DNA of 64,000 nucleotides from a virus. Numbering within the stretch: position 1 is the stretch's first letter; each line of letters begins with the position of its first letter. The position numbers and the translations under genes are program-made. The notes beneath the pieces are model-generated. The model was not told the origin of the DNA. It did no database searches and worked only from the letters and a program-made list of their open reading frames with translations. Positions 2,200-64,000 of this stretch are shown here, piece after piece. The stretch spans positions 5,966 through 69,965 of the IMG/VR virus record IMGVR_UViG_3300042463_000422, one strand, 5' to 3'.

Positions 2200-3177
2200 T
2201 TACTGGTCCTTGTAGTTGCGGTTGATGATCTTGAATCCGAGTGGTCGTCCGATGCCCATGGCTTCTCCATCGATCGGGCGAACAACGATTCCCTCGGCAG
2301 GCTTGCCGTCAGGCAGCGTCACGATGTCGGCGACGCTTTGCAGGTGCTCAATGGTTTCATCGAGAGTAACGGTAACTACAGGAACCCATTTGCACTGGAA
2401 CTTGTCTCGGCACACCTGAGCCATATCGATGTATCGAAGCCATTTGCCATTGGTGAGATCACGGATCTGGTAGACGACGAGCGTAGGCTCAGTGAGCTTC
2501 AACTGGTTCCCCTGCACACCCGGCCCCATCAACTCGCCTTGGATGACGCAGTTGGCACCCGGCGGGATGGTCAGCTTCCTCGCAGCAATCCAAAACCCGT
2601 TCGAGGCTGATTCCTTGAGCGACAGGTTGCGGCTACAGACGTGCGTGATGTTACCATCGACAACCACGATGGTGCATGAAGAACCGTCCAGCTTCAGCGT
2701 GGCGACGCACGGCTTCGACAGCGTGTGCTTCACGATATCAGGATGGCTCAGGCCATTGTCCTCGTCGGTCTTCGGGGCGTAGGAGGTTGGGAAAGCTCCA
2801 GCCACCTCACCGGACAGGCACGCCGGGATCTCCTTCTCGTACTTCTTGATACCCAGTTCGCCGCCCACGTCAGCGCCCTCCTGCCAGCCACGGACGTGCT
2901 CAGGAAGTATCGAGAGCGGCTGGACAAGTCCCTGACTGTACTCACCGCGCAGGCGGATCGTGTTGAGCCGAATCGGCTTGTCGCCCTTCTTCAGGAACGC
3001 CGACCACTCGGCATCGGGCAAGATGGTGTCGATGGGGATGAAAACGACGGACTCACCGGCCTTGAACTCGCCCTTGCGGACGATGATCTGCCACCCGAGA
3101 ACCTTGGCGATTTCGAGCGAGTCTGCGTTGCTGTGAGGAACGATGTCCTTGATGACTTCGATGCTGGCTAGTTTCAT
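2200..3177 (-). CDS. ATP-dependent RNA ligase, DRB0094 family
   Basis: N-terminal PHSNADSLEIAKVLGWQIIVRKGEF, motif I KLDGSS, QGELMGPGVQGN, EGIVVR, FKIIN. Confidence 0.9.
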   Translation of the reverse strand: MKLASIEVIKDIVPHSNADSLEIAKVLGWQIIVRKGEFKAGESVVFIPIDTILPDAEWSAFLKKGDKPIRLNTIRLRGEYSQGLVQPLSILPEHVRGWQEGADVGGELGIKKYEKEIPACLSGEVAGAFPTSYAPKTDEDNGLSHPDIVKHTLSKPCVATLKLDGSSCTIVVVDGNITHVCSRNLSLKESASNGFWIAARKLTIPPGANCVIQGELMGPGVQGNQLKLTEPTLVVYQIRDLTNGKWLRYIDMAQVCRDKFQCKWVPVVTVTLDETIEHLQSVADIVTLPDGKPAEGIVVRPIDGEAMGIGRPLGFKIINRNYKDQ

Positions 3178-52491: not shown

Positions 52492-52566
52492 TGGTAGCGG
52501 GGGGTGGACTCGAACCACCGACCGTCTGCTTATGAGGCAGCCTAGCTACCACTGCTACACCCCGCC
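52492..52566 (-). tRNA. tRNA-Met(CAT), initiator-like body
   Basis: GGCGGGG UG UAGC AGUGGUA GCUA G GCUGC CUCAUAA GCAGA CGGUC GGUGG UUCGAGU CCACC CCCCGCU A CCA. Confidence 0.93.
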
Positions 52567-52795: not shown

Positions 52796-52824
52796 GGTGT
52801 AGTACACCATGTGGGCGGTGTCAA
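52796..52824 (-). promoter_or_regulatory. promoter/operator copy 7: TTGACA-N10-GGTGTACTACACC
   Basis: Directly upstream of the ncRNA/tRNA cassette. Confidence 0.8.
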
Positions 52825-52832
52825 CGAGTGCT

Positions 52833-53300
52833 TTAGAAAGGCACGTCGTCGTCCATACTGACAGGACCATCGTTGGAAACACCCGCAGCAGCCTGCCGCT
52901 GGCTGACAGGGGCCTGCTGTTGATTGAAGCGTTGGACATTGGAACCGCCACCAGTCGGAGGAGTGGACGGCCGAGACAGCAGCTGGAGGTTCTCACCAAA
53001 GATGCCGAGCTTGCTCCGCTTCTCGCCCGTCTTCTTATCCTCCCACTGGTCGAGCTTGAGGCGTCCGTCGATCAGGATGGGGTCACCCTTCTTGACGTAC
53101 TTACTGACCACGTCGGAAACCTTCCCGATGAAGTCAACGTCGACGAACGTGGTTTCCTCCTTCTTCTCACCACTCTCAGTGGAGAACTTGCGGGAGACTG
53201 CCAGTCCGATCTTTGCGATAGAGGTGCCCTTGGGGGTGACCCTGACTTCGGGATCACGGGTGACGTTGCCCATGAGGACGACCTTGTTGTACGATGCCAT
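52833..53300 (-). CDS. ssb: single-stranded DNA-binding protein
   Basis: NKVVLMGNVTRDPE, GRLKLDQWEDK, DDDVPF tail. Confidence 0.97.
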   Translation of the reverse strand: MASYNKVVLMGNVTRDPEVRVTPKGTSIAKIGLAVSRKFSTESGEKKEETTFVDVDFIGKVSDVVSKYVKKGDPILIDGRLKLDQWEDKKTGEKRSKLGIFGENLQLLSRPSTPPTGGGSNVQRFNQQQAPVSQRQAAAGVSNDGPVSMDDDVPF

Positions 53301-53339
53301 GTTATTCCTTTTGGTTAGTGATAGCGCACGAAGCGCGTG

Positions 53340-54521
53340 CTAACTAAAGATGCTCACGTCCCTGATGTCAACGACCAGTCTGAACCCACAGGTGGGCTCG
53401 CCGCGTTCGTCGCATGGGATGGTGACTGCTCGCTTTCCTTCAGCGTTTACAAGGGTCTTCACGAACTGCACCGGCTCTCCGTCCGGCAGGTTGATCCGCC
53501 CCTTCTTCACGATGTAGATGCGCTCAGGTTTGAACGTGAACGCGCTGGATTGGGAGACGCGCTGGCCGTTGGTGACCACTGTGATCTCCTGCATGTTGCC
53601 TGCTTTGACGCGAGCCTCGGACACGCCTTGTCTTATGGCGTCGGTATCAACGTGAACGTACTGGGAGAAGATCCGCGGATCGAGGTGACCCGAGACCTTG
53701 GTTGCCAGAATGGTGCTCATGCCGCTGTTGGCCAGCATTGAGACGAATGAGTGGCGGAGGCTGTGGAACCGCTTGCTGCGATCGATGCCCGCCTTGTCTG
53801 CGATGTACCTGAATGCGTCACTGCCACTGCTGGCAATGACGTGTCGGTCCATGTTGACCCTGCTGCCTGCTTGATCCGACACGAAGTCGGTTGGGCTGGC
53901 AGTGGGGGATTCAGCACGCAGGGCCTGCAACGCCCTGCCAAGCTCGTCTGTTGGGTTGAATGGTATGATCGACTCGGTTCCTGTCTTCACACGCCTGATG
54001 CGGATGAAGCATTTGTCCATGTCGATGTCACCCCACCGCAGCATCATGCAGTCCGCGATGGACATGCCGGTGTTCCATCCAAGAAGTATGACCCAGTCCA
54101 TCCAGTGGCCGGCCGCTGTGTGTCGCAGCTTGATGTACTCTTCGTGAGTGATGGCGTTGACGCTCCGCTCGTCGCGGATGGTTGGAGTTCGCACGGCGTG
54201 GTGCGGACTGGTATTTACTCGACCAGTGGTCTCAAGCCACCTCAGGAACCGACGCACCGAGTTCCAGTACTCCTGAGCAGTGCGCGGCTTGTGGTTCTCG
54301 AAGAGCCGGGTGCAGTAGGTCTGCAGGTTCTCCGACGTGATGGTGTCGTGATGGCACGCCTTCATCCAAGATATCCACTTATTGATCCAAAGTTTCGAGA
54401 AGTGGATTGTAGCTGGGCGGCGACCCGGGAAGTCGCTGTTGTGATATGTCACAGCAAGATGCGCAAGCTGTGATGGGTTCATGTAGATCACATGTCCTTG
54501 GTACGTAGTTTCTGTGGTCAT
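53340..54521 (-). CDS. tyrosine recombinase/integrase family protein (first catalytic Arg replaced by Ser)
   Basis: SAM-like N-terminus, TGMSIAD, KT, FHSLRHSF, SGH, QYVH. Confidence 0.88.
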   Translation of the reverse strand: MTTETTYQGHVIYMNPSQLAHLAVTYHNSDFPGRRPATIHFSKLWINKWISWMKACHHDTITSENLQTYCTRLFENHKPRTAQEYWNSVRRFLRWLETTGRVNTSPHHAVRTPTIRDERSVNAITHEEYIKLRHTAAGHWMDWVILLGWNTGMSIADCMMLRWGDIDMDKCFIRIRRVKTGTESIIPFNPTDELGRALQALRAESPTASPTDFVSDQAGSRVNMDRHVIASSGSDAFRYIADKAGIDRSKRFHSLRHSFVSMLANSGMSTILATKVSGHLDPRIFSQYVHVDTDAIRQGVSEARVKAGNMQEITVVTNGQRVSQSSAFTFKPERIYIVKKGRINLPDGEPVQFVKTLVNAEGKRAVTIPCDERGEPTCGFRLVVDIRDVSIFS

Positions 54522-54593
54522 TGTATTAGTATTCTAAGTATTGTGATAACGATGTAGATCTCAGCTATCCACATCACGAGTATCCCGAAGAGC

Positions 54594-54872
54594 TTAAGCG
54601 AGCCCTTCATCGAATGTCCTCGATACTCTAGGCTTTAGATCCTTGTAGTAGGACCAGACACCACGCATAAACTGAAGGCGTGATCGACACCCGACTGAGG
54701 AGTCAACGATCGCCTTGAGGTGTAGGTTCATCTTGTCCATAGACTGCATCGTTGTCGCTGCCTTCAACTCCTTGATCTCCGATTCCATCTTATCGATGGC
54801 GGACATTATGATCTGCGCATTGTAGTCGAGCTTACCTTTAGTGAGTTTGAACAAGTCTTCGTCTGAAATCAT
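54594..54872 (-). CDS. hypothetical helical protein
   Basis: 92 aa ORF. Confidence 0.7.
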   Translation of the reverse strand: MISDEDLFKLTKGKLDYNAQIIMSAIDKMESEIKELKAATTMQSMDKMNLHLKAIVDSSVGCRSRLQFMRGVWSYYKDLKPRVSRTFDEGLA

Positions 54873-54884
54873 GGCGGTGTCGTG

Positions 54885-55466
54885 TTACTTGTTTGCTTCC
54901 TTCTCGACCGATACGCACAGGTTGAAGAGCCAGTCGCGGATCGCGATCAGCTTCCGCTTCACCCATGAGGGCTGAGCAGTCTTCGGAGCGTCAGGCTTGC
55001 GGACAGTTGTGACGCTAGGGTTGATCAGTGACGATGCCGTGTAAGCCTTCTGTCTCGCGAGCTCTTGATCTTGCATCATCGACTGTGAGATCAGGTCAGC
55101 AGTGTAGATCACAGCAGCGTTGCGCATTGCAGCCGCCTCTTTGGCAGCACGCTCGAGGTCCAGCTTGCGCTGGTAACGCTTGAGCCCTTGAGGGCTGGGG
55201 CTCGCATGCCTGAGGTGTTCAGGAGCAAAGCGGCGGCGAGCCGTGCAAACGGGAGGGCAGGTTACACTGTTCTCTTTGGCGATCTGGTGGTCAGGCTTGG
55301 TCCAGTCAACCTTGGTCCAGTCGATGCGGTACTTCTCGCGCTTGAACTTGCGGAGGTGTGTCTGCTTTCGGTAGTAGGCGATCAAGGACGGAGTCACCCC
55401 GAGGGATTCTGAAATCTCTCGGTTGGTTAGATCCCAGTTGATGGATTGAATATCGATGCGGTTCAT
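54885..55466 (-). CDS. tandem HTH protein (DW-type repeats)
   Basis: INWDLTNREISESLGVT..YR and VDWTKPDHQIAKENSVT..AR. Confidence 0.7.
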   Translation of the reverse strand: MNRIDIQSINWDLTNREISESLGVTPSLIAYYRKQTHLRKFKREKYRIDWTKVDWTKPDHQIAKENSVTCPPVCTARRRFAPEHLRHASPSPQGLKRYQRKLDLERAAKEAAAMRNAAVIYTADLISQSMMQDQELARQKAYTASSLINPSVTTVRKPDAPKTAQPSWVKRKLIAIRDWLFNLCVSVEKEANK

Positions 55467-55544
55467 GTGTATTGTGTGTTCAGTTTTTTGCTCGGCGTCA
55501 TTGCCGACAGAACCCAACAGCTGCGACTGATGGGTCTATGTCGA

Positions 55545-56261
55545 TCATGCTGCGACCATCTGCTCGATCTGGTGTCTGACCACGAACCCAGTGGTGTCCT
55601 TCTTGGCCTCGCCCTTGGGCTTGAGTCCAACGACTGTTCCGCGAGGATCAATGAACCTCAGGTCATGCTGGTCGCCGTCGATGACAGGCCAGCTGTTCCA
55701 GCGAGAGGGTCTCTCACCCTCGAAGATGACGGCCACGTTCCCGCCACGGGCAAGGATGTCGAGGCAGTCCTCGTTGTTGCTCCCGCTGTAGGAGAACGTG
55801 AGCTTGTAGTTGGGCGGCAGGTCGCCCTTGAGCATCTTGCCAACGCGATACGCCGACTTGGTGTAGTCGTAGAACTGTACGTGTGGGTGCTTCTTTATGA
55901 CGCTGTGCTGACCAAGTTCCCAAGCGATGTCACTCGTCCCATTGAGGCGGACGCAGGGCTTGAGGCCGTCGCGCTCAGCATCGAGCTTCAGCTGCTTGAT
56001 GTCGTAGTTCAGTGCGTTCATGAAGTCGTCGCGCTGAGAGAAGAACCAGCGCGTCTTGCGAATGCGGGCCAGCTGGACGTTGGCGAACTTGCCGCGACCG
56101 GACGTGTTGAGACACGCCTCGGTGCAGCCAGCATTGCGCCATGGGCAGACCTCAAACCCAGACAGGTTGCCCGGTGCGAGGTAGAGGATTCCAGTGAGGT
56201 AGCCAAGGGCTGTTCCCTTGGGTGTCTTGGCGTCAGTGTTGACGCCCAGCAGTTGGTACAT
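55545..56261 (-). CDS. gp88-like Cys-cluster protein
   Basis: ILYLAP, VCP...GC...CL..SGRG, VRLNGTSDI, FYDYTK, LTFS, IDGD.HDLRF.D, VGLK.KG. Confidence 0.85.
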   Translation of the reverse strand: MYQLLGVNTDAKTPKGTALGYLTGILYLAPGNLSGFEVCPWRNAGCTEACLNTSGRGKFANVQLARIRKTRWFFSQRDDFMNALNYDIKQLKLDAERDGLKPCVRLNGTSDIAWELGQHSVIKKHPHVQFYDYTKSAYRVGKMLKGDLPPNYKLTFSYSGSNNEDCLDILARGGNVAVIFEGERPSRWNSWPVIDGDQHDLRFIDPRGTVVGLKPKGEAKKDTTGFVVRHQIEQMVAA

Positions 56262-56276
56262 AGTTCCTTGTGAGTA

Positions 56277-56305
56277 GGTGTAATACACCTGTTGAGGTTA
56301 CGCAA
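56277..56305 (-). promoter_or_regulatory. promoter/operator copy 8: TTGCGT-N10-GGTGTATTACACC
   Basis: Same spacing. Confidence 0.75.
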
Positions 56306-56366
56306 GTCCGTTGTTGGCCTTGCCTACAACCCGTCACCCTTTCGAGTCACGGGCTGTGTGGCAGGG

Positions 56367-56573
56367 TCAGAAGACGAAGAAGTCCTCAGCCTTGTAGCTC
56401 GACGTGACACCGTCAGCCCAGAAGAGCGAGGCCCAGTCGTCGTTGATGATGCAGTGGACGAACCACTTGCCGTTCTTGTCCTGCTTCAACTGGTAGGCAC
56501 CAGTCTTCCAGCAGACACGCATACCGTTCTTCACTGCCGAGATGGCCTCGGCGATGGTGTGGAAGTGGTTCAC
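56367..56573 (-). CDS. small hypothetical early protein
   Basis: GTGA coupled; TIAEAISAVKNGMRVCW. Confidence 0.75.
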   Translation of the reverse strand: MNHFHTIAEAISAVKNGMRVCWKTGAYQLKQDKNGKWFVHCIINDDWASLFWADGVTSSYKAEDFFVF

Positions 56574-56860
56574 TTCACACCCCCCGCCTCACGGGTGATC
56601 TTCTCTGCATCTTGGCGCACGTCTTCAAGGCCAGAGTCAGACGTGATCAGTCGATCCTTGATCATGCGTGCAACCGAATCGCACACCGAATCAAAATTAG
56701 CCTGACACCAGTCGATGCCTTTAGCCTCGGCGTCAGCTATGCCGATCGCCCCGGCTGCGATCTTCTCGGAGGTGCTGATCTGGCCAGACGATTCGATGCG
56801 CGCTGCCAGCTGTGCCGCTGCGAATGCTACGTTGAAGACGTGGGTGTGGACGATGCTCAC
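56570..56860 (-). CDS. hypothetical early protein
   Basis: GTGA coupled, GGAGG SD. Confidence 0.75.
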   Translation of the reverse strand: MSIVHTHVFNVAFAAAQLAARIESSGQISTSEKIAAGAIGIADAEAKGIDWCQANFDSVCDSVARMIKDRLITSDSGLEDVRQDAEKITREAGGVK

Positions 56861-57282
56861 AGCGCACCTCCCTTGGCCTTGGAGATGGCGGCTGAATCCA
56901 GCCTGAGCGTCAGCTTGTATTCAGGTTGGTCAGACCGCAGCGGCTTTGATGAATCCCGATCTTGGAACCCAAGCCTCCTGTGAAAGTCGGCTGGTAGACG
57001 AGTGCTGAGCTCAAACGAGCCAATGAACGTGCATGGAGTAGACGGCATCGCTATCACCACAAGCCTCCTCCCATCACCCAACCCCCATTCCAGACGGAAC
57101 TCACCCGTGTCTAGGTCCTTGAGTATTTTGGCTGGGATTATGGCTCGATCGAGAACATTCACTGCCACTTTTCCCGGCAGAATCCCACGCCTTTCCCAAG
57201 GGCGATTGCTCCATAGGTTTCCCGGTAACCCTCCGTCCCAGTATTCCTGAAGCGTCAGCTTGTCACCTTTATTAAGGCTCAC
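56857..57282 (-). CDS. hypothetical early protein
   Basis: GTG start at 57282 with GGAGG SD; ends AISKAKGGAL. Confidence 0.65.
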   Translation of the reverse strand: MSLNKGDKLTLQEYWDGGLPGNLWSNRPWERRGILPGKVAVNVLDRAIIPAKILKDLDTGEFRLEWGLGDGRRLVVIAMPSTPCTFIGSFELSTRLPADFHRRLGFQDRDSSKPLRSDQPEYKLTLRLDSAAISKAKGGAL

Positions 57283-57596
57283 TTGGCACCTCCCTTGGCC
57301 TTGGCGATGGCTTCCCTGCACTTCTGCTGCGTTGCCATGCTTAGCGTGATGCGGCTTCTCGGGTGGATATCTGCTTTCGGATTCGTAATGTCCTCAAGGC
57401 ATTGCTCAAGCGCAGCGAGCATATCAGGCGCGGCGTCACGCAACGGCTCAGCGATGGACACCAGCGCCTCGCACTCAGGGCACTCACCGTTTGGGAAAGT
57501 GTCTCCGGGTTCAATCCTCTGGAAGACCTCGATACCAACCGAGTCGAGTTCACTGGTGTCGCCTGACCAGTCGCAGTTTGGGCAGCTGCATTTCAC
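57279..57596 (-). CDS. Zn-ribbon plus AAPDML...AIAKAKG module protein
   Basis: CPNC...ECPEC; GTG start. Confidence 0.75.
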   Translation of the reverse strand: MKCSCPNCDWSGDTSELDSVGIEVFQRIEPGDTFPNGECPECEALVSIAEPLRDAAPDMLAALEQCLEDITNPKADIHPRSRITLSMATQQKCREAIAKAKGGAK

Positions 57597-57787
57597 AGCG
57601 CACCTCCAGTGTTGGTGATCGCGTTGGTTGCTATCGCGCTGATCATGGTCAGCAGCTTCGCGAAGTCGGGTGCTTCGTGCCGCTGCCATGGCAGTGTGTT
57701 TGCTGGAGTGGCCAGCACCCTGATTCGCTGCATTGCCTCGACCAGTTGACGGTCGGGCTTGGTTTGGTCTTTGTGTATGGTGATCAT
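57593..57787 (-). CDS. hypothetical early protein
   Basis: 64 aa, coupled. Confidence 0.65.
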   Translation of the reverse strand: MITIHKDQTKPDRQLVEAMQRIRVLATPANTLPWQRHEAPDFAKLLTMISAIATNAITNTGGAL

Positions 57788-58134
57788 TTGTTCATGTGGT
57801 TGTTGAGCTTCTCCTGTAGTGCCTTGAGCTCGTCGTCGTGGATGTCGAGCGACTCAGCGATACCAACGAACAGGTCGGCATCACCAAGTGTCATACGCGC
57901 TGCCTCCAGTAGGGTGACTAGCTCCTCGTCGGTGAATGGGTGAACGTGGACAACATCGCTCCCTGTTACCATCGTCTTGAAGAAGCCATTGTCGTCGGAC
58001 GTACCCAGTTTCAGTTCCGTCGCACCGGAATAGATGGCATCAACGGTTTCGGAGCTCCATTCGGTTTGCTCCTCCAGCACGCTCAGCGTGTGGATCGCGA
58101 AATCAATTAGTCGCTTCTGTAAGTCTGATGTCAT
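57784..58134 (-). CDS. acidic hypothetical early protein
   Basis: 116 aa, coupled. Confidence 0.75.
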   Translation of the reverse strand: MTSDLQKRLIDFAIHTLSVLEEQTEWSSETVDAIYSGATELKLGTSDDNGFFKTMVTGSDVVHVHPFTDEELVTLLEAARMTLGDADLFVGIAESLDIHDDELKALQEKLNNHMNK

Positions 58135-58150
58135 GGTGATTGAGTGATTG

Positions 58151-58351
58151 TTAGTTGATGGTTCCGTCGGGTTCGATCTCGCGGTACTCGTTGGAGAATC
58201 GATTCGTCTTCTTGCGCATAAGCATGATGGCTATCTCTTGGCTGGGCTGTTTTTCAGGAGTAGGCATATCGACCATCCACCTGTAGAACTTGAATCCCTG
58301 TTTGTTGAGCTTCTTCTCTGCGTCTAGTTGAGCTTGTGTTGGTTTGTACAT
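58151..58351 (-). CDS. hypothetical early protein (MYKPTQAQ...EIEPDGTIN)
   Basis: AAGGA SD, ATG 58351. Confidence 0.75.
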   Translation of the reverse strand: MYKPTQAQLDAEKKLNKQGFKFYRWMVDMPTPEKQPSQEIAIMLMRKKTNRFSNEYREIEPDGTIN

Positions 58352-58391
58352 AGTTCCTTGGATCTGCCGCCACACCGTGTGGAAGCAGACC

Positions 58392-58416
58392 AAAAGAGCC
58401 GGGTGTCACCCCGGCT
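58392..58416 (-). terminator. rho-independent terminator-like hairpin
   Basis: AGCCGGG-GUGACA-CCCGGCU-CUUUU after the GATase stop. Confidence 0.7.
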
Positions 58417-58422
58417 GGTGTG

Positions 58423-59406
58423 TTACTTGTGCAGGTCACCGTTCAGGTGAGCCTCGACCTGAGCCTCGATGTTAGGATCGAAGTCAGGGAATGACTCGCG
58501 CTGGGTGTCGCGAGGAACGCTGATCGCCTTGCTTGGGTTGACCGCCTCGCGGGGCGCAAGTTTGTCATCCCACATGTCGGTCTGCCGTCCGTACCTCCTC
58601 GACATGTAGGCGTCGCGAGAGGTGCGAATACCCATCGACCGATCCCATGCAGTATCGCGAACCGAGTCGGCGAACCCGCACCACTTCTCATTGAGGATCA
58701 GCGAGGCGCGAGACCCACCAAGCGAGAACTCAGCAACAGTCTTGGGCATCATCGAGACCGACTTGGTTGCGAGCTTGATGCCAGCAGCACGGGCGATGTG
58801 CATGGCGTCATGCCCACTGGTACTGAACAAGTGGTTGTCCTTGCCGTCACTGACCCAGTCGAGATTCCCCGACCCGCACTTGGCGACGATCAGTCGCTTG
58901 GTATTCGAGTCGATGATTCCGAACACGCCATAGCCAGACCAGTGCTTGTTGGTGGCGGACCACTTGTTGTTAGTCTTGCGATGCAACCACCACTGGAAGA
59001 ACTCCTCGGTGTCGCATCCGTTCTTAGCCTTGGGACCGGGACCGTCACCAACCCATCGCAGTATCCCGTTGTGGGCGAGGTGGATGCCATTGGATTGGAA
59101 CGGATGGCAGTTATCGACGATCACCTTGTTGGTGGAGGTCCGACCGTGAACCACCAGAGCGGTCACGACCGGAGGGATCTCACCCTCCTCGATCTGGGTG
59201 GTGTTGATGAATGGCGGAACCTTGACTCCGAACCCGCAGTAGGATTCAGGTTTGAGGTATCGACCGTAGGCCACACCTTTCGGGCCGTAGGCCGTGAAGC
59301 CAAACCCGTCACGCTGAGTGACAGCGAAGACGTTGTTGGCCTCGGCGATCATGCGGAGCACTTGCTCACGGGAGAACTTGCCGGCTGCGATGAATAGTTT
59401 GCACAT
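58423..59406 (-). CDS. class II (Ntn) glutamine amidotransferase
   Basis: N-terminal MC, DGFG, HGRTST, NCHPF, LAHNGIL, DTE. Confidence 0.92.
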   Translation of the reverse strand: MCKLFIAAGKFSREQVLRMIAEANNVFAVTQRDGFGFTAYGPKGVAYGRYLKPESYCGFGVKVPPFINTTQIEEGEIPPVVTALVVHGRTSTNKVIVDNCHPFQSNGIHLAHNGILRWVGDGPGPKAKNGCDTEEFFQWWLHRKTNNKWSATNKHWSGYGVFGIIDSNTKRLIVAKCGSGNLDWVSDGKDNHLFSTSGHDAMHIARAAGIKLATKSVSMMPKTVAEFSLGGSRASLILNEKWCGFADSVRDTAWDRSMGIRTSRDAYMSRRYGRQTDMWDDKLAPREAVNPSKAISVPRDTQRESFPDFDPNIEAQVEAHLNGDLHK

Positions 59407-59442
59407 AGATATCAGTGATTAAGATGTTGTGTTGACGGTGTT

Positions 59443-60573
59443 TTACTCGACGTTGCCACCGGGAGCGAAGTCCAAGGCTGATGCGACACGGGCATCTACT
59501 GCACCGACGTTGCCGTGCAGACGCTGGTTGCGGAGGACGCACCAGGAAGCCATCCACGAGGGTAGGATGGCGAGGAAGCCGGACCAGTTGGTCGGCACGC
59601 TGTTGTTCTTGTTGGCGCAGTGATCGAACAGGTGCCTACACAACAGTGCCCACGACTCGATCTTCACCACGTTGGTCGAGCCATTGGCGCAGCGGAACTC
59701 GATGGTCTTGTACTTCTTGTACGCCTCGAAGTTGATCGCAGCGTAGCGACCAGCACTCGCATTGTATCGATCAGAGTCAGGGTTGTTGTTTACCCACTTG
59801 CAGTACTTGTTACGAAGCCGTGATTCACTCACCAGCTTCTTGAGCATGGGGTACAGCAGCGTGAGCCGATCGTAGGTTTGCGACGCGGTGAGAAGCATCC
59901 TGTCGTCGGACGGCTCGGTAGGAAGGTGACGGGCATCGATGTGGATGTGGACACCGCACTTCTTGTTAATCCGATACCCCTGCAGCTGCTTCTCCAGTGA
60001 GAGCAGACCCATGAGCCGACCATTGCTGGCCCAGGTCATGCGCTTGATTTCGATGCCGCCGCTGTCGAGTGATCCATCGTTGCCGACCTCGGTCAGACCA
60101 TTGTCTACCGGGAATTTTCCGTATGGGTAGTAGCACTCGATCTCGACCGACACCAGTCGGCCGACCAGCTTGGGTGCCTGCTTGGCAGCTTCCATCGCAG
60201 ACAGTTTTGAGACCGGCTTGGTCGGTGGGAAGAGCTTGTTGCGATGGTGAGCTAACTGGATGCGATTGCTTCCAGCATAGTCACCGATCAAGCTATCAGG
60301 AAGGGTGCTGTTCTTGAGTGAGTAGAACGACTTGGCGTTCCGCATCATTGACGCCAGCAGCGTGTCCTTGGCTCGCACCGGAGCACCGTGGACAGGGGCA
60401 AGGCTGTGGCCATAAGACGTTCTGTCCACAAGGTGGATGCACTGCTTGTAGCGGTGAGCGTCGCTTGAGTAGACGCCTGGGTATTTACTACCAGCAGCGA
60501 CCTCCGTCTTCTTAACGTAATTGAGGCCGCCGGTGTAACCCGCAGAGCGGAACATGGAGATGACTTGATACAT
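59443..60573 (-). CDS. putative amidoligase (amidoligase_2 / COOH-NH2 ligase)
   Basis: SVEIE, DGSL, IEI, CGVHIHID, RYAAIN, TIEFR..GS; start re-set to MYQV. Confidence 0.9.
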   Translation of the reverse strand: MYQVISMFRSAGYTGGLNYVKKTEVAAGSKYPGVYSSDAHRYKQCIHLVDRTSYGHSLAPVHGAPVRAKDTLLASMMRNAKSFYSLKNSTLPDSLIGDYAGSNRIQLAHHRNKLFPPTKPVSKLSAMEAAKQAPKLVGRLVSVEIECYYPYGKFPVDNGLTEVGNDGSLDSGGIEIKRMTWASNGRLMGLLSLEKQLQGYRINKKCGVHIHIDARHLPTEPSDDRMLLTASQTYDRLTLLYPMLKKLVSESRLRNKYCKWVNNNPDSDRYNASAGRYAAINFEAYKKYKTIEFRCANGSTNVVKIESWALLCRHLFDHCANKNNSVPTNWSGFLAILPSWMASWCVLRNQRLHGNVGAVDARVASALDFAPGGNVE

Positions 60574-60689
60574 AGGTGACTGAGTTGATGTTCTGACGCG
60601 GTGACGTTGTGTCACCGGCTTGGTCGTGGTTGACCACAGCACACAACCCATCTCTGTGAGAGCGATGGGTTGGCTGCTTTGGTCAGCAG

Positions 60690-60971
60690 TTAGTCGGTCC
60701 AGAGGATGTCCAGATCGGCCGATTGCCAGACGATGCAGGTGTCCGGGTCTCGGCCGTCTGTGATTATGCAAGCCTCCCAATCGAAGAGTCCGCGGAGTGG
60801 CTTGGATGTCTCGATGATGTGCTCAGTGTCTTCACCGAACTCACGCTTGGTCCACTTGCGGACCAGAGTTTCGAGGTCCAGTGGCTCATTGGCAGCAATC
60901 TCCATGATGGATTGCGTGCCCTCGCGCCGGTTGGTGACCAGCAGGTACTGGTCTGGGTATGTGGTGCTCAT
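60690..60971 (-). CDS. acidic hypothetical early protein
   Basis: 93 aa, ATGA coupled. Confidence 0.7.
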   Translation of the reverse strand: MSTTYPDQYLLVTNRREGTQSIMEIAANEPLDLETLVRKWTKREFGEDTEHIIETSKPLRGLFDWEACIITDGRDPDTCIVWQSADLDILWTD

Positions 60972-61321
60972 GCGAGTTCTTCCACCCAGTCGCGTTGCTT
61001 ACCGGCCGGTGTAACGCGGTGCATTATGGCACCACCCACCATTGACTCCCACCCGCTGAACCGGTGGGTCAGACCGCCCTTGACGCCCCATGTCAGGAAC
61101 TCCGTGGGCTGTAGCTTGTCGGGGGTCTTGGCGACCTCTCGATAGATCTCCTCGCGCACCACCTCGATGGCGGAGGCTGCAGACTCAGCGATGACGGGCG
61201 AGAACACCCGCTTCTTGGACCAGAACAGGCCGCTGGTCACGGCGACGACGGTGAACTTGAAGTACCGCCGCCCCTTGTAGGTGTCGAGGCAGGCGGTGGC
61301 AGGGATGGGACGTGGTTTCAT
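60968..61321 (-). CDS. hypothetical early protein
   Basis: 117 aa. Confidence 0.7.
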   Translation of the reverse strand: MKPRPIPATACLDTYKGRRYFKFTVVAVTSGLFWSKKRVFSPVIAESAASAIEVVREEIYREVAKTPDKLQPTEFLTWGVKGGLTHRFSGWESMVGGAIMHRVTPAGKQRDWVEELA

Positions 61322-61324
61322 AGG

Positions 61325-61750
61325 TTAGACGGCTGCTGCTTCACAGAGGTCTTCCCAGACGGAGTCCTGTCTGGACTTGGCTACGGTTTTGAGGTGCTCG
61401 AATTGAGCGGGCTTCATTGCGTCGAAGCCTTCAAGCCGGGCCATACGGAGAGCATTTTGGAGGGTGAATTCCATACGCCTGTTCTCAATCAGAACAACAT
61501 CGAGGTCTTGTTCTATGTACGCTGACTCAACACGGTCAATGTACATCACAATACGTCCACTGTTATTGCTCTGAGTGACCTCCACTTTGATGATCTTAGT
61601 GGCTACTATATAGGTATCACTATTCGACACATAGCACATGCCGATCAGTGACATTAGGTTGTTGTAGATCTCATCGTTGTCGAGTTTCACGATGAGGTTG
61701 CCGATGCTGTTGTGCAGAGCTTTTAGCTCTTCAATAGTACTTGTCTTCAT
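61325..61750 (-). CDS. hypothetical protein, visibly AT-rich
   Basis: 141 aa; atypical codons. Confidence 0.7.
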   Translation of the reverse strand: MKTSTIEELKALHNSIGNLIVKLDNDEIYNNLMSLIGMCYVSNSDTYIVATKIIKVEVTQSNNSGRIVMYIDRVESAYIEQDLDVVLIENRRMEFTLQNALRMARLEGFDAMKPAQFEHLKTVAKSRQDSVWEDLCEAAAV

Positions 61751-61753
61751 AGG

Positions 61754-62110
61754 TTAGTTCTTGGCGAGTTCAGGTGACAGGTGGCGGTTGACCTTGGTCC
61801 AGTAGGACTTGGTCGCAGACTTGGTGTGACCGGTGGGGCCACCATTCCAGATTCGGGCAGCGTCTTCAGGGCTTTTGCCCTTGGCCCACTTTCGCAGGTA
61901 GAGGTCACAGACCTTCCGGGCATCGGCACGATTGGTCATGCCATTCCATGTGTAGGACGTGCCGTAGAAGTGATTAACGTCTTTAACGACCTCGCGGTGG
62001 ATTTGGAGAGCGCCGATCGCCTTGCCGCCATCACCGACAGCGGTGTCAGGGTTGCGATAGCCGCCTGATTCGACAGCCATGAGGGCTGAGATGAGTGCAC
62101 TGTAGTTCAT
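61754..62110 (-). CDS. lysozyme-superfamily hydrolase (i-type/destabilase-like)
   Basis: AVESGG..AVGDGGKAIGALQIH...DVN, ARIWNGGP, T..YW.KV. Confidence 0.85.
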   Translation of the reverse strand: MNYSALISALMAVESGGYRNPDTAVGDGGKAIGALQIHREVVKDVNHFYGTSYTWNGMTNRADARKVCDLYLRKWAKGKSPEDAARIWNGGPTGHTKSATKSYWTKVNRHLSPELAKN

Positions 62111-62313
62111 CGGAGGATGCCCTCCGCTTTAAGGTGTGCCTCGAATAGCGGCAATGCCGCTTTGGCGGTCCTTGCCTTGATGCCCAGTGCCTTGACCATG
62201 GACAAGGCTGAGGGGCCGTGTGAACGACGCATACCCAAGCTCTCCAGCTTGAGCGCGCCCTTGATAGCGAGCATCCGATAGGCGTGGATGCCATCGGGAG
62301 TGTTGATAGTCAT
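62107..62313 (-). CDS. small basic phage protein (MTINTPDGIHAYRMLAIKGALKLE..GM)
   Basis: ATG 62313, ATGA-coupled to lysozyme. Confidence 0.75.
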   Translation of the reverse strand: MTINTPDGIHAYRMLAIKGALKLESLGMRRSHGPSALSMVKALGIKARTAKAALPLFEAHLKAEGILR

Positions 62314-62363
62314 AGTGAACAGAAGAACCCGCCAAAACCGGACGGGAACGGAACGAGGAACGT

Positions 62364-62418
62364 CGCTGGGCTTGTGACCAGCGTGCCGCATTACCGGGCC
62401 GAAGCCCGTCACTCTGCG
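62364..62418 (-). ncRNA. twister ribozyme, circularly permuted (P5-type)
   Basis: CGCA GAG UGA CGGGC UUCG GCCCG G U|AA UGC GGC A CGCUG GUCACAAGCC CAGCG; P1, P2, P4, T1 (UCAC/GUGA) and T2 (GGC/GCC) all pair. Confidence 0.88.
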
Positions 62419-62419
62419 A

Positions 62420-62605
62420 TTAGAACCGAAGCAGTAGGCCAGCGACCAGTAGGCCGACGACGCCTGCGATTGTGGGTGTCTCGCCGTGCTCCACGATCAC
62501 CCGCACTTCACGGGTGCCGACACGGACGACGTGGTGATTGGCTTTGGGCCACGCTTGGCGGGCGTAGCCGATGCCCCAAGGGCGTGACCTGCATTCGAGG
62601 ATCAC
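62420..62605 (-). CDS. small protein with C-terminal TM segment
   Basis: GTGA coupled, GGAGG SD; IAGVVGLLVAGLLL. Confidence 0.6.
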   Translation of the reverse strand: MILECRSRPWGIGYARQAWPKANHHVVRVGTREVRVIVEHGETPTIAGVVGLLVAGLLLRF

Positions 62606-62775
62606 GCGAGCCTCCGATCATGGAAAGCCAACTCGCTCCTGAGTTGGCGGATGTACCGCTGAGCAACACGGTCATCAGCGAGAGCCGTGTTGATCGAATG
62701 CTCCAAGCGGAGCTTCAGTTGCCGAACCCGGCGAACAGTCTCGGCTGGATTGAGTGGGATGAACTTGGCGCTCAT
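62602..62775 (-). CDS. 57-aa basic helical protein (MSAKFIPLNPAETVRRVRQLKLRLEHS...)
   Basis: Hand-translated; ATG directly after the upstream TAA; not in the ORF track. Confidence 0.65.
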   Translation of the reverse strand: MSAKFIPLNPAETVRRVRQLKLRLEHSINTALADDRVAQRYIRQLRSELAFHDRRLA

Positions 62776-62982
62776 TTAGTTGGCGTGAGTGGTGAGCTTT
62801 TCCAGAGCCTCGACGGTGATAGTCCCGTAGGACTTCGAGAACTGAGCACGGACGTCCGGATCATTCTCAATGAGCATCGCCATGGCTCGCACGGCGGCAC
62901 CGATAGCCAGAGCCTCGGTCACTTCGATTGACTGACTACGCCCGTTGAGGGCCTTGGATACAATTGAATCGATGGGAAACAT
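62776..62982 (-). CDS. 68-aa hypothetical protein whose AUG lies in hammerhead stem I
   Basis: MFPIDSIVSKALNG... Confidence 0.7.
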   Translation of the reverse strand: MFPIDSIVSKALNGRSQSIEVTEALAIGAAVRAMAMLIENDPDVRAQFSKSYGTITVEALEKLTTHAN

Positions 62983-63038
62983 AGGACGGGCCAGAAGCCC
63001 GTTTCGGCCCACTTGTGGCGGGGCCATCGTCAGCTATG
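62980..63038 (-). ncRNA. hammerhead ribozyme, type I
   Basis: CAUAG CUGACGA U GGCCC-loop-GGGCC GAAA CGGGC UUCUG GCCCG UC| CUAUG; full core and three stems. Confidence 0.9.
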
Positions 63039-63049
63039 GCCGGGACCGC

Positions 63050-63451
63050 TCAGGCGAGGAAGGCCTCGGCCTCGGCGATGGTGGCAAACTTGCCACGGTT
63101 GACCAGTTGCTGGGCGAGGGTAACCGGCTTGGCCACCTCTTCAGCCTTGATGAACTTAATCTGGGCAGAGTTCTTCCGCACGTCGACCGTATCGGCCACG
63201 AAGCCCTTGGACGCCAAGGCGGAGACGGTTGCGGCAACGGTCGCAGCACGGGCCGCAGATTCATCGGAAAGGGCAGCGTTGACGTAGTCCTTGAGGGCAT
63301 TGCCCTTGAGTCCAAGGGTCTTGCCGGTTTCCTTGAGGGTCTTGGCGCAGGCGGTCCCGATGAAGTAACGGGTACCCATATTGCGACCCTTGAATCCGAG
63401 AATGGGCGCGGAGGTGGAAGGCAGGGTGGCGACGGCGTTGGTGACGGACAT
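63050..63451 (-). CDS. Ala/Lys-rich early protein (133 aa, MSVTNAVATL...)
   Basis: Strong codon bias; ATG 63451. Confidence 0.8.
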   Translation of the reverse strand: MSVTNAVATLPSTSAPILGFKGRNMGTRYFIGTACAKTLKETGKTLGLKGNALKDYVNAALSDESAARAATVAATVSALASKGFVADTVDVRKNSAQIKFIKAEEVAKPVTLAQQLVNRGKFATIAEAEAFLA

Positions 63452-63469
63452 ATTGATTGAGAGTTGCAA

Positions 63470-64000
63470 GCGTTGGCCCGTATCGGCCCAAGTCTGAAGA
63501 CTTGGAATAAACCGCACGGTGGACACCCTAGGCGACGTGGACGCCGCTTGCATCTAGGGCAAACCGGTTGACCCCAACGGGATCGGACCGGCAAAGAGAA
63601 TGGACCCAACGGGTCCGGGTAAGGGTTGAAGTGTGCAGTGACCCTGCACGGGTATGGGTAGACTTTACCTTTAACGGCATACCTATAGGTACACCGGGCC
63701 GCTTGCCATTGCTGAAGAACCACGGTCGCGCCCTCCATGGTCAATGACCATGTAGGCTACCCTCAGTGCCAACTCGCTCCGATAGCTCATTGCCCAATTC
63801 GACCGCAGACTGTCAGGTGGATTCCGACACACCCCTTGCGGGGCCTTGAACCGACTCACGGGACCGGCCACACCCTTGAGAGGGCCGCCGTCTCCGACCT
63901 TACGGTTGAGCTTTGAAAGAACCGTCAGCACCGCCTCGCTTTCGCTTGGCACTACCGACACCACCCCTAGGAAACGCCTTCCTTTTCTCCGAATTGTGGG
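63470..64000 (-). ncRNA. large structured non-coding region / leader RNA (may extend beyond the window)
   Basis: About 12 hairpins, GNRA loops in minus orientation, long-range AGUGCCAA/UUGGCACU pair; no credible ORF. Confidence 0.5.

What the first reader, a model, noticed from the sequence alone, without database searches (positions are those of the whole stretch)
62364..62418. Minimal permuted twister ribozyme with P1 capped by UUCG and no visible P3 or P5
Seen: 55 nt starting 2 nt after the upstream stop codon. The conserved elements (UAA, GAG, GUnnCAAGCC, both pseudoknots) are present, but the strand break lies between P4 and P2 and I find no P5 helix joining the flanks. Inference: a very compact natural permutation that forms the 3' end of the upstream RNA and the 5' leader of the small gene and lysozyme.
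Basis: partly seen in the sequence, partly recalled or inferred. Interest (0 to 1): 0.75.

Follow-up and report, generated by a model that had tools for sequence, protein, structure and literature searches.

The report
Ordinary type-P5 twister ribozyme in phage
The flagged 53 bases are a genuine twister self-cleaving ribozyme of the already described type-P5 layout, sitting between two genes of a lake-water phage, where it most likely cuts the shared messenger RNA in two; it is a typical member of its family, not a new form.

Summary
Window 62418..62366 (minus strand) matches Rfam Twister-P5 (RF02684) over the whole model: 59.7 bits against a cut-off of 37.6, E 6.7e-10. The claimed novelty does not hold. 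A break between P4 and P2 defines the published type P5, and P3 and P5 are optional stems (PMC5408937).

Compared with 126 viral type-P5 hits, this copy is typical:
- Length: 53 nt, as in 18 of 126.
- Flank pairing: no more than in controls.
- T1 pair: U-A, as in 90 of 126.
- Upstream stop codon: within 40 nt in 77 of 106 hits; 1 nt here.

The host record is a complete 69,965-nt phage genome. Eight related contigs carry the same ribozyme core. Their P1 changes keep the helix, and metagenome variants show a compensatory P4 change.

The ribozyme is fused to a conserved ~50-nt leader. This unit stays fixed while the genes on both sides differ between contigs. Cleavage itself is untested, because no RNA runs hold the sequence.

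Verdict: a new member of a known kind, of low to moderate interest.

The parts
62366..62418 (-). Type-P5 twister self-cleaving ribozyme (53 nt)
   Evidence: Rfam RF02684, 59.7 bits against a cut-off of 37.6, E 6.7e-10, full model 1-58. The core is identical in 8 related contigs.
62392..62393 (-). Predicted scissile bond, U62393|A62392 (the UAA between P1 and P2)
   Evidence: Model alignment. The family's cleavage site is a conserved A preceded by a less conserved U adjoining P1 (PMC5408937). Cleavage was not tested.
62394..62409 (-). P1 hairpin: an A.G position, then 5 pairs, closed by a UUCG loop
   Evidence: Relatives lengthen this stem, and at one pair they show G-C, G.U or A-U. All four metagenome runs carry a P1 three nt longer.
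62366..62381 (-). P4 stem (CUG/CAG) with loop L4 (GUCACAAGCC), which supplies the 3' halves of pseudoknots T1 and T2
   Evidence: The P4 middle pair U62380-A62367 becomes C-G within the same contigs of runs X8 and X10. The T1 middle pair is paired in 122 of 126 viral hits.
62314..62365 (-). Conserved leader joined to the ribozyme: a pyrimidine-rich tract with three GUUCC units, a hairpin at 62346..62328, then a U/C-rich stretch up to the ATG
   Evidence: Window and the L002 contig are identical over 83 of 83 nt of ribozyme plus leader. The 28-nt leader core occurs once in the window, with 0 expected. It occurs in 5 viral and 3 metagenome contigs, always directly after a twister. The hairpin was listed by the terminator-like scan, which overall was not above chance.
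62420..62605 (-). Upstream 61-aa ORF with a hydrophobic C-terminus; its TAA stop (62422-62420) ends 1 nt before the ribozyme
   Evidence: Of 12 variant sites in metagenome contigs, 8 are third codon positions, 4 are first and 0 are second. One variant turns the GTG start into ATG (my reading, table 3). No Pfam or PHROG hit.
62107..62313 (-). Downstream 68-aa gene of unknown function
   Evidence: phrog_19182, E 1.1e-8. It follows the ribozyme-leader unit in the window, L133 and L137 but not in the other leader-bearing contigs whose downstream sequence is held.
61754..62110 (-). 118-aa lysozyme-like gene (i-type lysozyme/destabilase-like)
   Evidence: Family profile A2 against PDB 8bbu 'Lysozyme', E 6.4e-16 over the full length. 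Pfam Destabilase and SLT each match 3 of 9 family members. The window's own protein has no Pfam hit and only a weak single-sequence PDB hit, E 1.2e-4.

Best explanation
The element is a type-P5 twister self-cleaving ribozyme encoded on the minus strand of a complete ~70-kb lake-water phage genome, inside a run of same-strand small genes.

Inferred mechanism. Once transcribed as part of the polycistronic RNA, it folds into P2-P1-P4 with pseudoknots T1 and T2 and cuts itself between U62393 and A62392. The upstream RNA, which carries the 61-aa ORF, would end in a 2',3'-cyclic phosphate just after the stable UUCG-capped P1 hairpin. The downstream RNA would begin with a 5'-hydroxyl A, followed by the P4 hairpin and a conserved ~50-nt leader that runs to the next start codon.

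The ribozyme plus leader acts as one conserved unit that gives a defined 5' end to whichever gene follows it: the 68-aa gene here, the lysozyme-like gene or a 128-aa gene in relatives. This uncouples the fate of the upstream and downstream messages.

Shown here: family membership, conservation, structure-preserving variation, position relative to genes. Inferred: transcription across the element, cleavage in vivo, and any effect on RNA stability or translation.
For: Family membership:
- Full-length Rfam hit well above the cut-off, and the only ribozyme in the window.

Structure-preserving variation in close relatives:
- The P4 pair U-A becomes C-G within single contigs of runs X8 and X10, and all four runs carry a longer P1.
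- One P1 pair is G-C, G.U or A-U across 9 loci while the core stays identical.

The wider viral set supports the same structure:
- T1 middle pair paired in 122 of 126 hits, and P4 fully paired in 104 of 126 with 21 different 5' strands.
- P1 has 4 or more consecutive pairs in 106 of 126 hits, with 114 distinct sequences, against 2.1% in shuffles.

Constraint at the nucleotide level:
- 83 of 83 nt are identical to the L002 contig, although the neighbouring lysozyme-like proteins are 79% identical and the upstream genes do not align.

Position fits an mRNA-processing role:
- It is on the same strand as all supported genes.
- A same-strand ORF of 60 or more codons ends within 40 nt upstream in 77 of 106 viral hits, against 26 of 106 antisense and 16.8% at random positions. 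In 54 of those 77 the stop ends within 2 nt of the ribozyme's first base (some overlap it). The window's distance is 1 nt.
- Other phage contigs hold same-strand arrays of 2 to 6 Twister-P5 among small genes.

Literature:
- Processing of polycistronic transcripts and a link to phage genes have been suggested for bacterial twisters and hammerheads (PMC6765202 passages).
Against: There is no RNA evidence: none of the 24 listed sequencing runs is on record as RNA. There is no biochemical test of this sequence.

Folding energies of the precursor and of the 3' product are no better than shuffles, with z-scores of +0.93 and +0.71. This is expected for a small pseudoknotted RNA, but it gives no support.

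In an E. coli reporter, cleavage of a 5'-UTR by an engineered twister did not seem to change mRNA stability or protein level (PMC5052635 discussion passage). A stability effect of the new ends is therefore not assured.

The leader's function is unknown. I found no partner sequence for it and no promoter-like site.

The 126 viral hits were selected with a pattern that fixes the core motifs and allows no room for P3. They include groups of related phages, so the counts are not independent events.
Confidence: 0.85

Rival explanations
1. Translation-coupled cleavage. Because the upstream stop codon ends 1 nt before P2, a terminating ribosome would cover the 5' strand of P2 and the T1 strand and block folding. 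Cleavage would then happen only on untranslated RNA or after ribosome release, linking upstream translation to processing. This refines the main reading and is not exclusive of it.
For: Stop codons cluster tightly against the ribozyme's 5' edge. In 54 of the 77 viral hits with an upstream ORF end, the stop ends within 2 nt of the ribozyme's first base. The commonest arrangements among 126 hits are TAA at 0 nt (21) or 1 nt (18), and TAG overlapping ribozyme positions 1-2 (18). The window has TAA at 1 nt.
Against: Dense packing of phage genomes alone could place the ribozyme against the stop codon. The A/U-rich bases at -3 to -1 could instead serve the fold: the type-P1 consensus has UAAA at the equivalent junction (alignment). 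Nothing here tests ribosome occupancy.
Confidence: 0.2
2. The conserved block is kept for a DNA-level reason, such as a recombination junction between exchangeable gene modules or a promoter. The ribozyme would then be a passenger, or active but of little consequence.
For: Identity begins at the ribozyme's 5' end and ends near the next start codon, while the genes on both sides differ. Nine loci show at least 4 unrelated upstream genes and 3 downstream arrangements in 5 combinations. Metagenome contig pieces break at 62336 and 62422, and in three runs the two pieces lie 418 letters apart within the same contig (table 8).
Against: Changes inside the block follow RNA pairing: the compensatory P4 pair and helix-preserving P1 variants. 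A pure DNA signal does not predict this. No sigma-70-like promoter was found in 61500-64000. Both roles could coexist.
Confidence: 0.1
3. The conserved sequence is a protein-coding N-terminal extension. The frame 62412..62107 is open through the ribozyme and leader and continues into the 68-aa gene.
For: The frame is open in the window (101-aa ORF). In L002 it is open and in frame with the lysozyme-like gene (166-aa ORF).
Against: In L003 the same conserved stretch is out of frame with the following 128-aa gene (ORFs 2431..2667 and 2601..2987). Identity of 83 of 83 nt with no synonymous change next to genes at 79% protein identity points to nucleotide-level constraint, not protein-level. The full covariance-model match explains the conservation.
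Confidence: 0.02
4. Chance resemblance or a decayed, inactive relic of a twister.
For: No activity data exist. The literature notes that many computationally predicted ribozyme candidates did not cleave when tested (PMC8782182 introduction passage).
Against: E 6.7e-10 with every model position matched and 0 of 14 control genomes matching. The core is invariant in 8 related contigs, with compensatory changes in the stems.
Confidence: 0.03

Closest known systems
Type-P5 twister ribozyme (Rfam RF02684, clan CL00120). The class was described by Roth et al. 2014; I recall that citation, and the paper was not held.
   Same: All modelled features match: P2, L1 (GAGNG), a closed P1 hairpin, the UAA cleavage loop, L2 GC, P4/L4 (GUCNCAAGCC), both pseudoknots, and termini between P4 and P2. 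Its length, the A.G opening position of P1, the U-A T1 pair and the lack of a P5 helix are common or majority states among 126 viral hits.
   Different: Nothing structural. Particular to this small phage lineage is the ~50-nt conserved leader fused to the 3' end. Among all loci held, it was found only in the window's genome (L001) and in loci of the L002 and L003 contigs, plus six further contigs that carry the exact 28-nt core.
Type-P1 and type-P3 twisters (O. sativa, env22 and env9 crystal-structure constructs)
   Same: The same catalytic core and double-pseudoknot fold, with a U-A scissile dinucleotide (PMC5408937 passages).
   Different: They are circularly permuted relative to this one, with termini in P1 or P3, and P3 is present in 78% of annotated twisters. 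Here P1 is closed by a tetraloop and P3 is absent. A sub-threshold twister-P1-like hit (47.5 bits against a cut-off of 67.2) lies about 1.5 kb upstream in relative L002, but the window has no counterpart.
Hammerhead and other small self-cleaving ribozymes near phage genes in bacteria and phages
   Same: They are intergenic, on the same strand as neighbouring small or phage-like genes, and have been proposed to process polycistronic mRNAs (PMC6765202; three type II hammerheads near phage-like genes in D. vulgaris, PMC8782182).
   Different: A different fold and active site. No hammerhead, pistol, hatchet or twister-sister was found in this window at E up to 1.

Membership tests
Twister ribozyme, type P5 (Rfam RF02684) | Covariance-model score at or above the curated gathering score, over the whole model | tested here: met
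   59.7 bits against 37.6, model 1-58 of 58, not truncated.
Twister ribozyme, type P5 (Rfam RF02684) | [quoted passage not shown] | tested here: met
   P2 has 4 pairs, P1 has 5 pairs plus an A.G position, and P4 has 3 pairs. The minimum-free-energy fold recovers P1 and P4. Local variants keep the pairing.
Twister ribozyme, type P5 (Rfam RF02684) | Strongly conserved nucleotides in L1 and L4, and the conserved A 3' of the scissile bond | tested here: met
   GAG-G in L1, UAAUGC, GC in L2 and GUC-CAAGCC in L4 all match the consensus line. The two variable positions, model 8 and 49, are U and A and pair with each other.
Twister ribozyme, type P5 (Rfam RF02684) | Pseudoknot T1 (L1 with L4) | tested here: met
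   GUG 62412-62410 is complementary to CAC 62376-62374. The middle pair covaries across viral hits (U-A 90, G-C 22, A-U 5, G.U/U.G 4, C-G 1) and is paired in 122 of 126.
Twister ribozyme, type P5 (Rfam RF02684) | Pseudoknot T2 (conserved GC of L2 with two bulged L4 nucleotides) | tested here: inconclusive
   GC 62386-62385 and GC 62371-62370 are present, as the structural description requires (PMC5408937). These bases are invariant here and were fixed by my search pattern, so covariation could not be tested.
Twister ribozyme, type P5 (Rfam RF02684) | Permutation: P1 closed by a loop, with RNA termini at the P5 position between P4 and P2 | tested here: met
   The order P2-L1-P1 hairpin-UAA-P2-L2-P4 is read. 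The definition of the types comes from PMC5408937. A P5 helix is optional, and is absent here and in the viral set at large.
Twister ribozyme, type P5 (Rfam RF02684) | Site-specific self-cleavage giving 2',3'-cyclic phosphate and 5'-OH ends | not testable with these tools
   No listed sequencing run is on record as RNA. This needs an in vitro cleavage assay or end-specific RNA sequencing.

The most novel reading that the evidence does not exclude
The twister and its ~50-nt leader form a portable 'cut-and-lead' cassette. This fixed unit sits at a mosaic junction of a lake-phage lineage. It ends the message of whichever small (often membrane-anchored) gene lies upstream and supplies a standard hairpin-capped 5'-OH leader to whichever gene lies downstream.

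More generally, phage type-P5 twisters are placed so that the upstream stop codon touches the ribozyme. Translation termination and ribozyme folding would then be mechanically coupled.
Probability: 0.25. Interest if true: 0.5.

Novelty: new member of a known kind. Interest (0 to 1): 0.25.

Why it matters
The finding adds one more well-supported natural type-P5 twister, in a complete freshwater phage genome, with natural variants that support its helices. That alone is routine.

Two by-products could be more useful, because the biological role of bacterial and phage twisters is still described as largely speculative (PMC5408937; PMC6765202):
- In viral contigs, type-P5 twisters sit directly against the upstream stop codon (77 of 106 hits against about 17-25% in controls), and they can occur in same-strand arrays between small genes.
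- In this lineage the ribozyme is welded to a conserved leader and marks a junction where genes are exchanged.

Both are cheap to test and bear on what these ribozymes are for. I could not check whether the stop-codon adjacency is already in print. The two founding papers were not held, supplementary files were not consulted, and the search listing showed no paper on it.

Tried and rejected
- RNA evidence: the look-up of sequencing runs listed 24 holders, all DNA lake-water or other metagenomes, with no RNA holder listed. Cleavage in vivo could not be examined.
- P5 search: the best flank helix in the window is 3 pairs. Across 126 viral hits, flank pairing equals the mismatched-flank control: helices of 4 or more pairs in 23 against 22.8 expected, and mean duplex energy -2.15 against -2.09 kcal/mol. 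I rejected the idea of a hidden P5.
- Leader partner: a duplex scan of the leader against the minus-strand RNA of 52800-64000 gave only distant hits that look like chance. No conclusion.
- Leader as terminator: a hairpin plus U/C-rich tail was listed, but 5 terminator-like sites against 2.2 +/- 1.7 expected is not significant. Sigma-70 promoter scan: 0 sites.
- Shine-Dalgarno: the leader lacks one, but so do most genes of this phage (6 of 26 and 5 of 42 ORFs have an SD-like 4-mer, background 13-14%). This is not a special feature.
- RtcB, which joins the ends that ribozymes make: no match in the phage genome.
- GenBank phage collection, blastn of 61700-63100: no match.
- Folding-energy z-scores were not significant.
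- The coding-extension reading was rejected because the frame fails in L003.
- Six of eight lysozyme-homologue loci (L004-L009, 34-46% identity) have no twister. The ribozyme is not tied to the lysozyme family as such.
- PHROG search of the six largest ORFs did not place the phage in a known group. The 3053-aa ORF had no hit, so an N4-like idea was dropped.
- Roth 2014 and Weinberg 2015 were not held, so statements about them are recalled.

Full report
**Observation.** The sequence at the flagged place matches the Rfam model Twister-P5 (RF02684) on the minus strand, window 62418..62366. The score is 59.7 bits against a gathering score of 37.6, with E 6.7e-10, and covers all 58 model positions without truncation. 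A permissive scan of the whole window (E up to 1) found no other ribozyme: only a tRNA and two weak hits far below their cut-offs. The search of the window's own genome gave the same single hit, and the family matched none of 14 control genomes.

From the model alignment the parts are:
- P2: 62418-62415 with 62390-62387.
- L1: GAGUG, 62414-62410.
- P1: a hairpin at 62409-62394 closed by UUCG.
- Cleavage site: UAA at 62393-62391, scissile bond U62393|A62392.
- L2: starts with GC at 62386-62385.
- P4/L4: 62381-62366.

T1 is GUG 62412-62410 with CAC 62376-62374. The two halves of T2 (GC and GC) are in place as the structural literature describes (PMC5408937 passages). The upstream TAA is 62422-62420.

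**What the permutation is.** The review PMC5408937 (passages read) makes two relevant statements. Twisters have three essential stems (P1, P2, P4) and optional P0, P3 and P5. Three circular permutations are named by the stem holding the termini: type P1, P3 or P5. A break between P4 and P2 with P1 closed by a loop is type P5, so this is not a new permutation. The Rfam type-P5 consensus structure contains neither P3 nor P5 pairs.

**How typical this copy is.** From these I took 136 hits with 20-nt flanks; hits closer than 20 nt to a locus end were dropped. After removing duplicates, 126 remained.
- Length: 50 to 73 nt, and 53 nt occurs 18 times.
- Flank pairing: helices of 4 or more pairs within 4 nt of the ribozyme ends occur in 23 of 126, against 22.8 expected when 5' and 3' flanks of different hits are combined. 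Duplex energies are the same as the control. The window's best is 3 pairs.
- T1 middle pair: U-A, as in the window, in 90 of 126, and some standard pair in 122 of 126.
- P4: fully paired in 104 of 126, with 21 different 5' strands.
- P1: 114 distinct sequences, and 4 or more consecutive pairs in 106 of 126, against 2.1% of shuffles. The A.G opening position seen in the window is the commonest state, 63 of 126.

Two caveats apply. The pattern fixes the core motifs and leaves no room for P3. Related phages are over-represented, so these are counts of sequences, not of independent events.

**Genome and genes.** The window is bases 5966-69965 of a 69,965-nt virus record with direct terminal repeats, rated 100% complete. 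It has no match in the GenBank phage collection over 61700-63100. DNA runs that hold it are labelled lake-water metagenomes, plus one labelled only 'metagenome'.

Around the ribozyme all supported genes are on the minus strand:
- Four small ORFs lie upstream. The last has 61 aa and a hydrophobic C-terminus.
- The ribozyme follows.
- Next is a 68-aa gene (phrog_19182, E 1.1e-8).
- Next is a 118-aa gene.
- Further small genes and an amidoligase-like gene follow.

The 118-aa protein has no Pfam hit of its own. A profile of it and eight homologues matches i-type lysozyme 8bbu at E 6.4e-16 over its full length, with an invariant Glu and Asp. Pfam Destabilase and SLT each match 3 of the 9 members. 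'Lysozyme' is therefore a fair name.

The 61-aa upstream ORF looks like a real gene. In metagenome variants, 8 of 12 differing sites are third codon positions and none are second positions, and one variant changes its GTG start to ATG (my reading, table 3).

**Relatives.** Of eight viral loci encoding a homologue of the lysozyme-like protein, only the two closest (79-80% identity) carry a Twister-P5. The six more distant ones do not. A three-way alignment shows that similarity begins at the ribozyme's 5' end. It runs through the ribozyme and about 50 further bases to the next start codon. The upstream genes do not align, and the gene after the leader differs (ORFs). Window and the L002 contig are identical over 83 of 83 nt.

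The 28-nt core of the leader occurs once in the window, with 0 expected. Exact copies occur in five viral and three metagenome contigs. In all nine loci, window included, a twister abuts it with no gap.

The ribozyme core is identical in all nine. Only the distal part of P1 varies, in length and at one pair that is G-C, G.U or A-U.

The upstream gene is of at least four unrelated kinds. Downstream there is the 68-aa gene, the lysozyme-like gene directly, or a 128-aa gene. These occur in five combinations.

Contigs of four lake-water runs add three points:
- A variant has U62380-A62367 of P4 changed to C-G within the same contig.
- All four runs have a P1 three nt longer.
- Contig pieces break at 62336 and 62422. 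In three runs the two pieces lie 418 letters apart in the same contig, which means extra DNA between the upstream ORF and the ribozyme.

The ribozyme plus leader is thus a fixed unit in a mosaic region, and its internal changes obey RNA pairing.

**Position relative to genes in general.** Of the 126 hits, 106 have at least 400 nt on both sides. In 77 of these, a same-strand open frame of 60 or more codons ends within 40 nt upstream. The controls give 26 of 106 on the antisense strand and 16.8% at random same-strand positions. In 54 of the 77 the stop ends within 2 nt of the ribozyme's first base. The window's distance is 1 nt.

The commonest arrangements are TAA at 0 or 1 nt, and TAG overlapping the first two ribozyme bases. 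Five multi-copy loci scanned with Rfam hold 20 Twister-P5 hits, all above the cut-off and all on one strand within each locus: six in L024, five in L062, four in L050. A single ribozyme pressed against the stop codon of a small gene is therefore the ordinary phage arrangement.

**Mechanism.** I take the element to be transcribed within the minus-strand polycistronic RNA and to cut itself at U62393|A62392. The 5' product would end in the GC-rich UUCG hairpin P1 with a cyclic phosphate. The 3' product would start with a 5'-OH, the P4 hairpin and the conserved leader.

This matches the role suggested in the literature for bacterial twisters and hammerheads, namely processing of polycistronic transcripts into parts of different stability or translation, with a likely link to phages (PMC6765202 passages).

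None of this is shown for this sequence. No RNA run holds it. In an E. coli reporter, cleavage of a 5'-UTR by a twister did not seem to affect mRNA stability or protein level (PMC5052635 passage).

The leader's role is unknown. It has a hairpin followed by a U/C-rich stretch (not above chance) and no Shine-Dalgarno motif. The phage's genes generally lack such motifs, so that is not special.

**Rivals.**
- A protein-coding reading of the conserved block fails because the frame does not continue into the next gene in L003, and because the identity is at the nucleotide level.
- A purely DNA-level reading (recombination junction or promoter) fits the mosaic pattern but not the compensatory changes. 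It may coexist with ribozyme function.
- Translation-coupled folding is suggested by the stop-codon adjacency but is untested. Genome compaction, or a structural use of the A/U-rich junction, would explain the same data.
- Chance or decay is excluded in practice by the score and the conservation.

**Verdict.** This is a new, well-supported member of the known type-P5 twister family, typical in every feature I measured. The lineage-specific ribozyme-leader cassette and the general stop-codon adjacency are the only points that go beyond routine annotation. I could not establish whether the latter is already published: the founding papers were not held, supplements were not consulted, and the listing showed nothing on it.

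Noticed in passing
L012-L131 (viral contigs); window 62419-62422: Viral type-P5 twisters sit directly against the stop codon of a same-strand upstream ORF: 77 of 106 hits within 40 nt, and 54 of those within 2 nt of the ribozyme's first base. Controls give 26 of 106 antisense and 16.8% at random positions. TAA at 0 or 1 nt, or TAG overlapping the first two ribozyme bases, are the commonest forms.
   Followed up: partly
L024 2681-5405; L062 5713-8091; L050 51-1584; L031 519-3143; L015 10447-10913: Same-strand arrays of 2 to 6 Twister-P5 hits, all above the Rfam cut-off, spaced roughly 0.35 to 1.3 kb apart among small genes. These look like ribozyme-punctuated operons in other phage contigs.
   Followed up: partly
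L002 1397-1462 (+): A sub-threshold twister-P1-like match (47.5 bits against a cut-off of 67.2, E 1.4e-7). P2, P3, P4 and the L4 motif are intact but the model's P1 is mismatched. It lies 22 nt before the ATG of a 144-aa ORF, about 1.5 kb upstream of that phage's Twister-P5. The window has no counterpart at E up to 1.
   Followed up: partly
window 62336 and 62422: Contigs from lake-water metagenomes break or diverge at both edges of the ribozyme-leader unit. In runs X8, X12 and X14 the two matching pieces lie 418 letters apart within one contig, so some variants carry extra DNA between the 61-aa ORF and the ribozyme (tables 7 and 8). The content of that DNA was not seen.
   Followed up: no
window 62423-62605 (-); L034, L136, L138 upstream ORFs: Three of the four unrelated gene types found just upstream of the ribozyme encode small proteins ending in a hydrophobic stretch. 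In four loci the lysozyme-like gene follows the ribozyme directly. This would fit a holin-like gene, then the ribozyme, then an endolysin. It is read from the sequences only; no membrane-helix prediction or family match was obtained.
   Followed up: no
window, all ORFs of 90 aa or more: Few genes of this phage have a Shine-Dalgarno-like 4-mer before the start codon: 6 of 26 plus-strand and 5 of 42 minus-strand ORFs, against a background of 13-14%. This suggests a host that does not rely on SD pairing.
   Followed up: partly
window 52492-52566 (-): A phage-encoded tRNA-Met with anticodon CAT.
   Followed up: yes
window 62986-63002 (-) and 63602-63616 (-): Two further GC-rich hairpins with pyrimidine-rich tails on the minus strand. 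The first ends 3 nt before a possible ATG start at 62982 of the 83-aa ORF. The second lies in the non-coding stretch upstream of the gene run. The terminator-like scan as a whole was not above chance.
   Followed up: no
window 42854-52015 (+) and 28264-36216 (+): Two very large ORFs of 3053 and 2650 aa. The first has no PHROG match at 1e-5. The second matches a tail-fibre family only at its C-terminus.
   Followed up: partly
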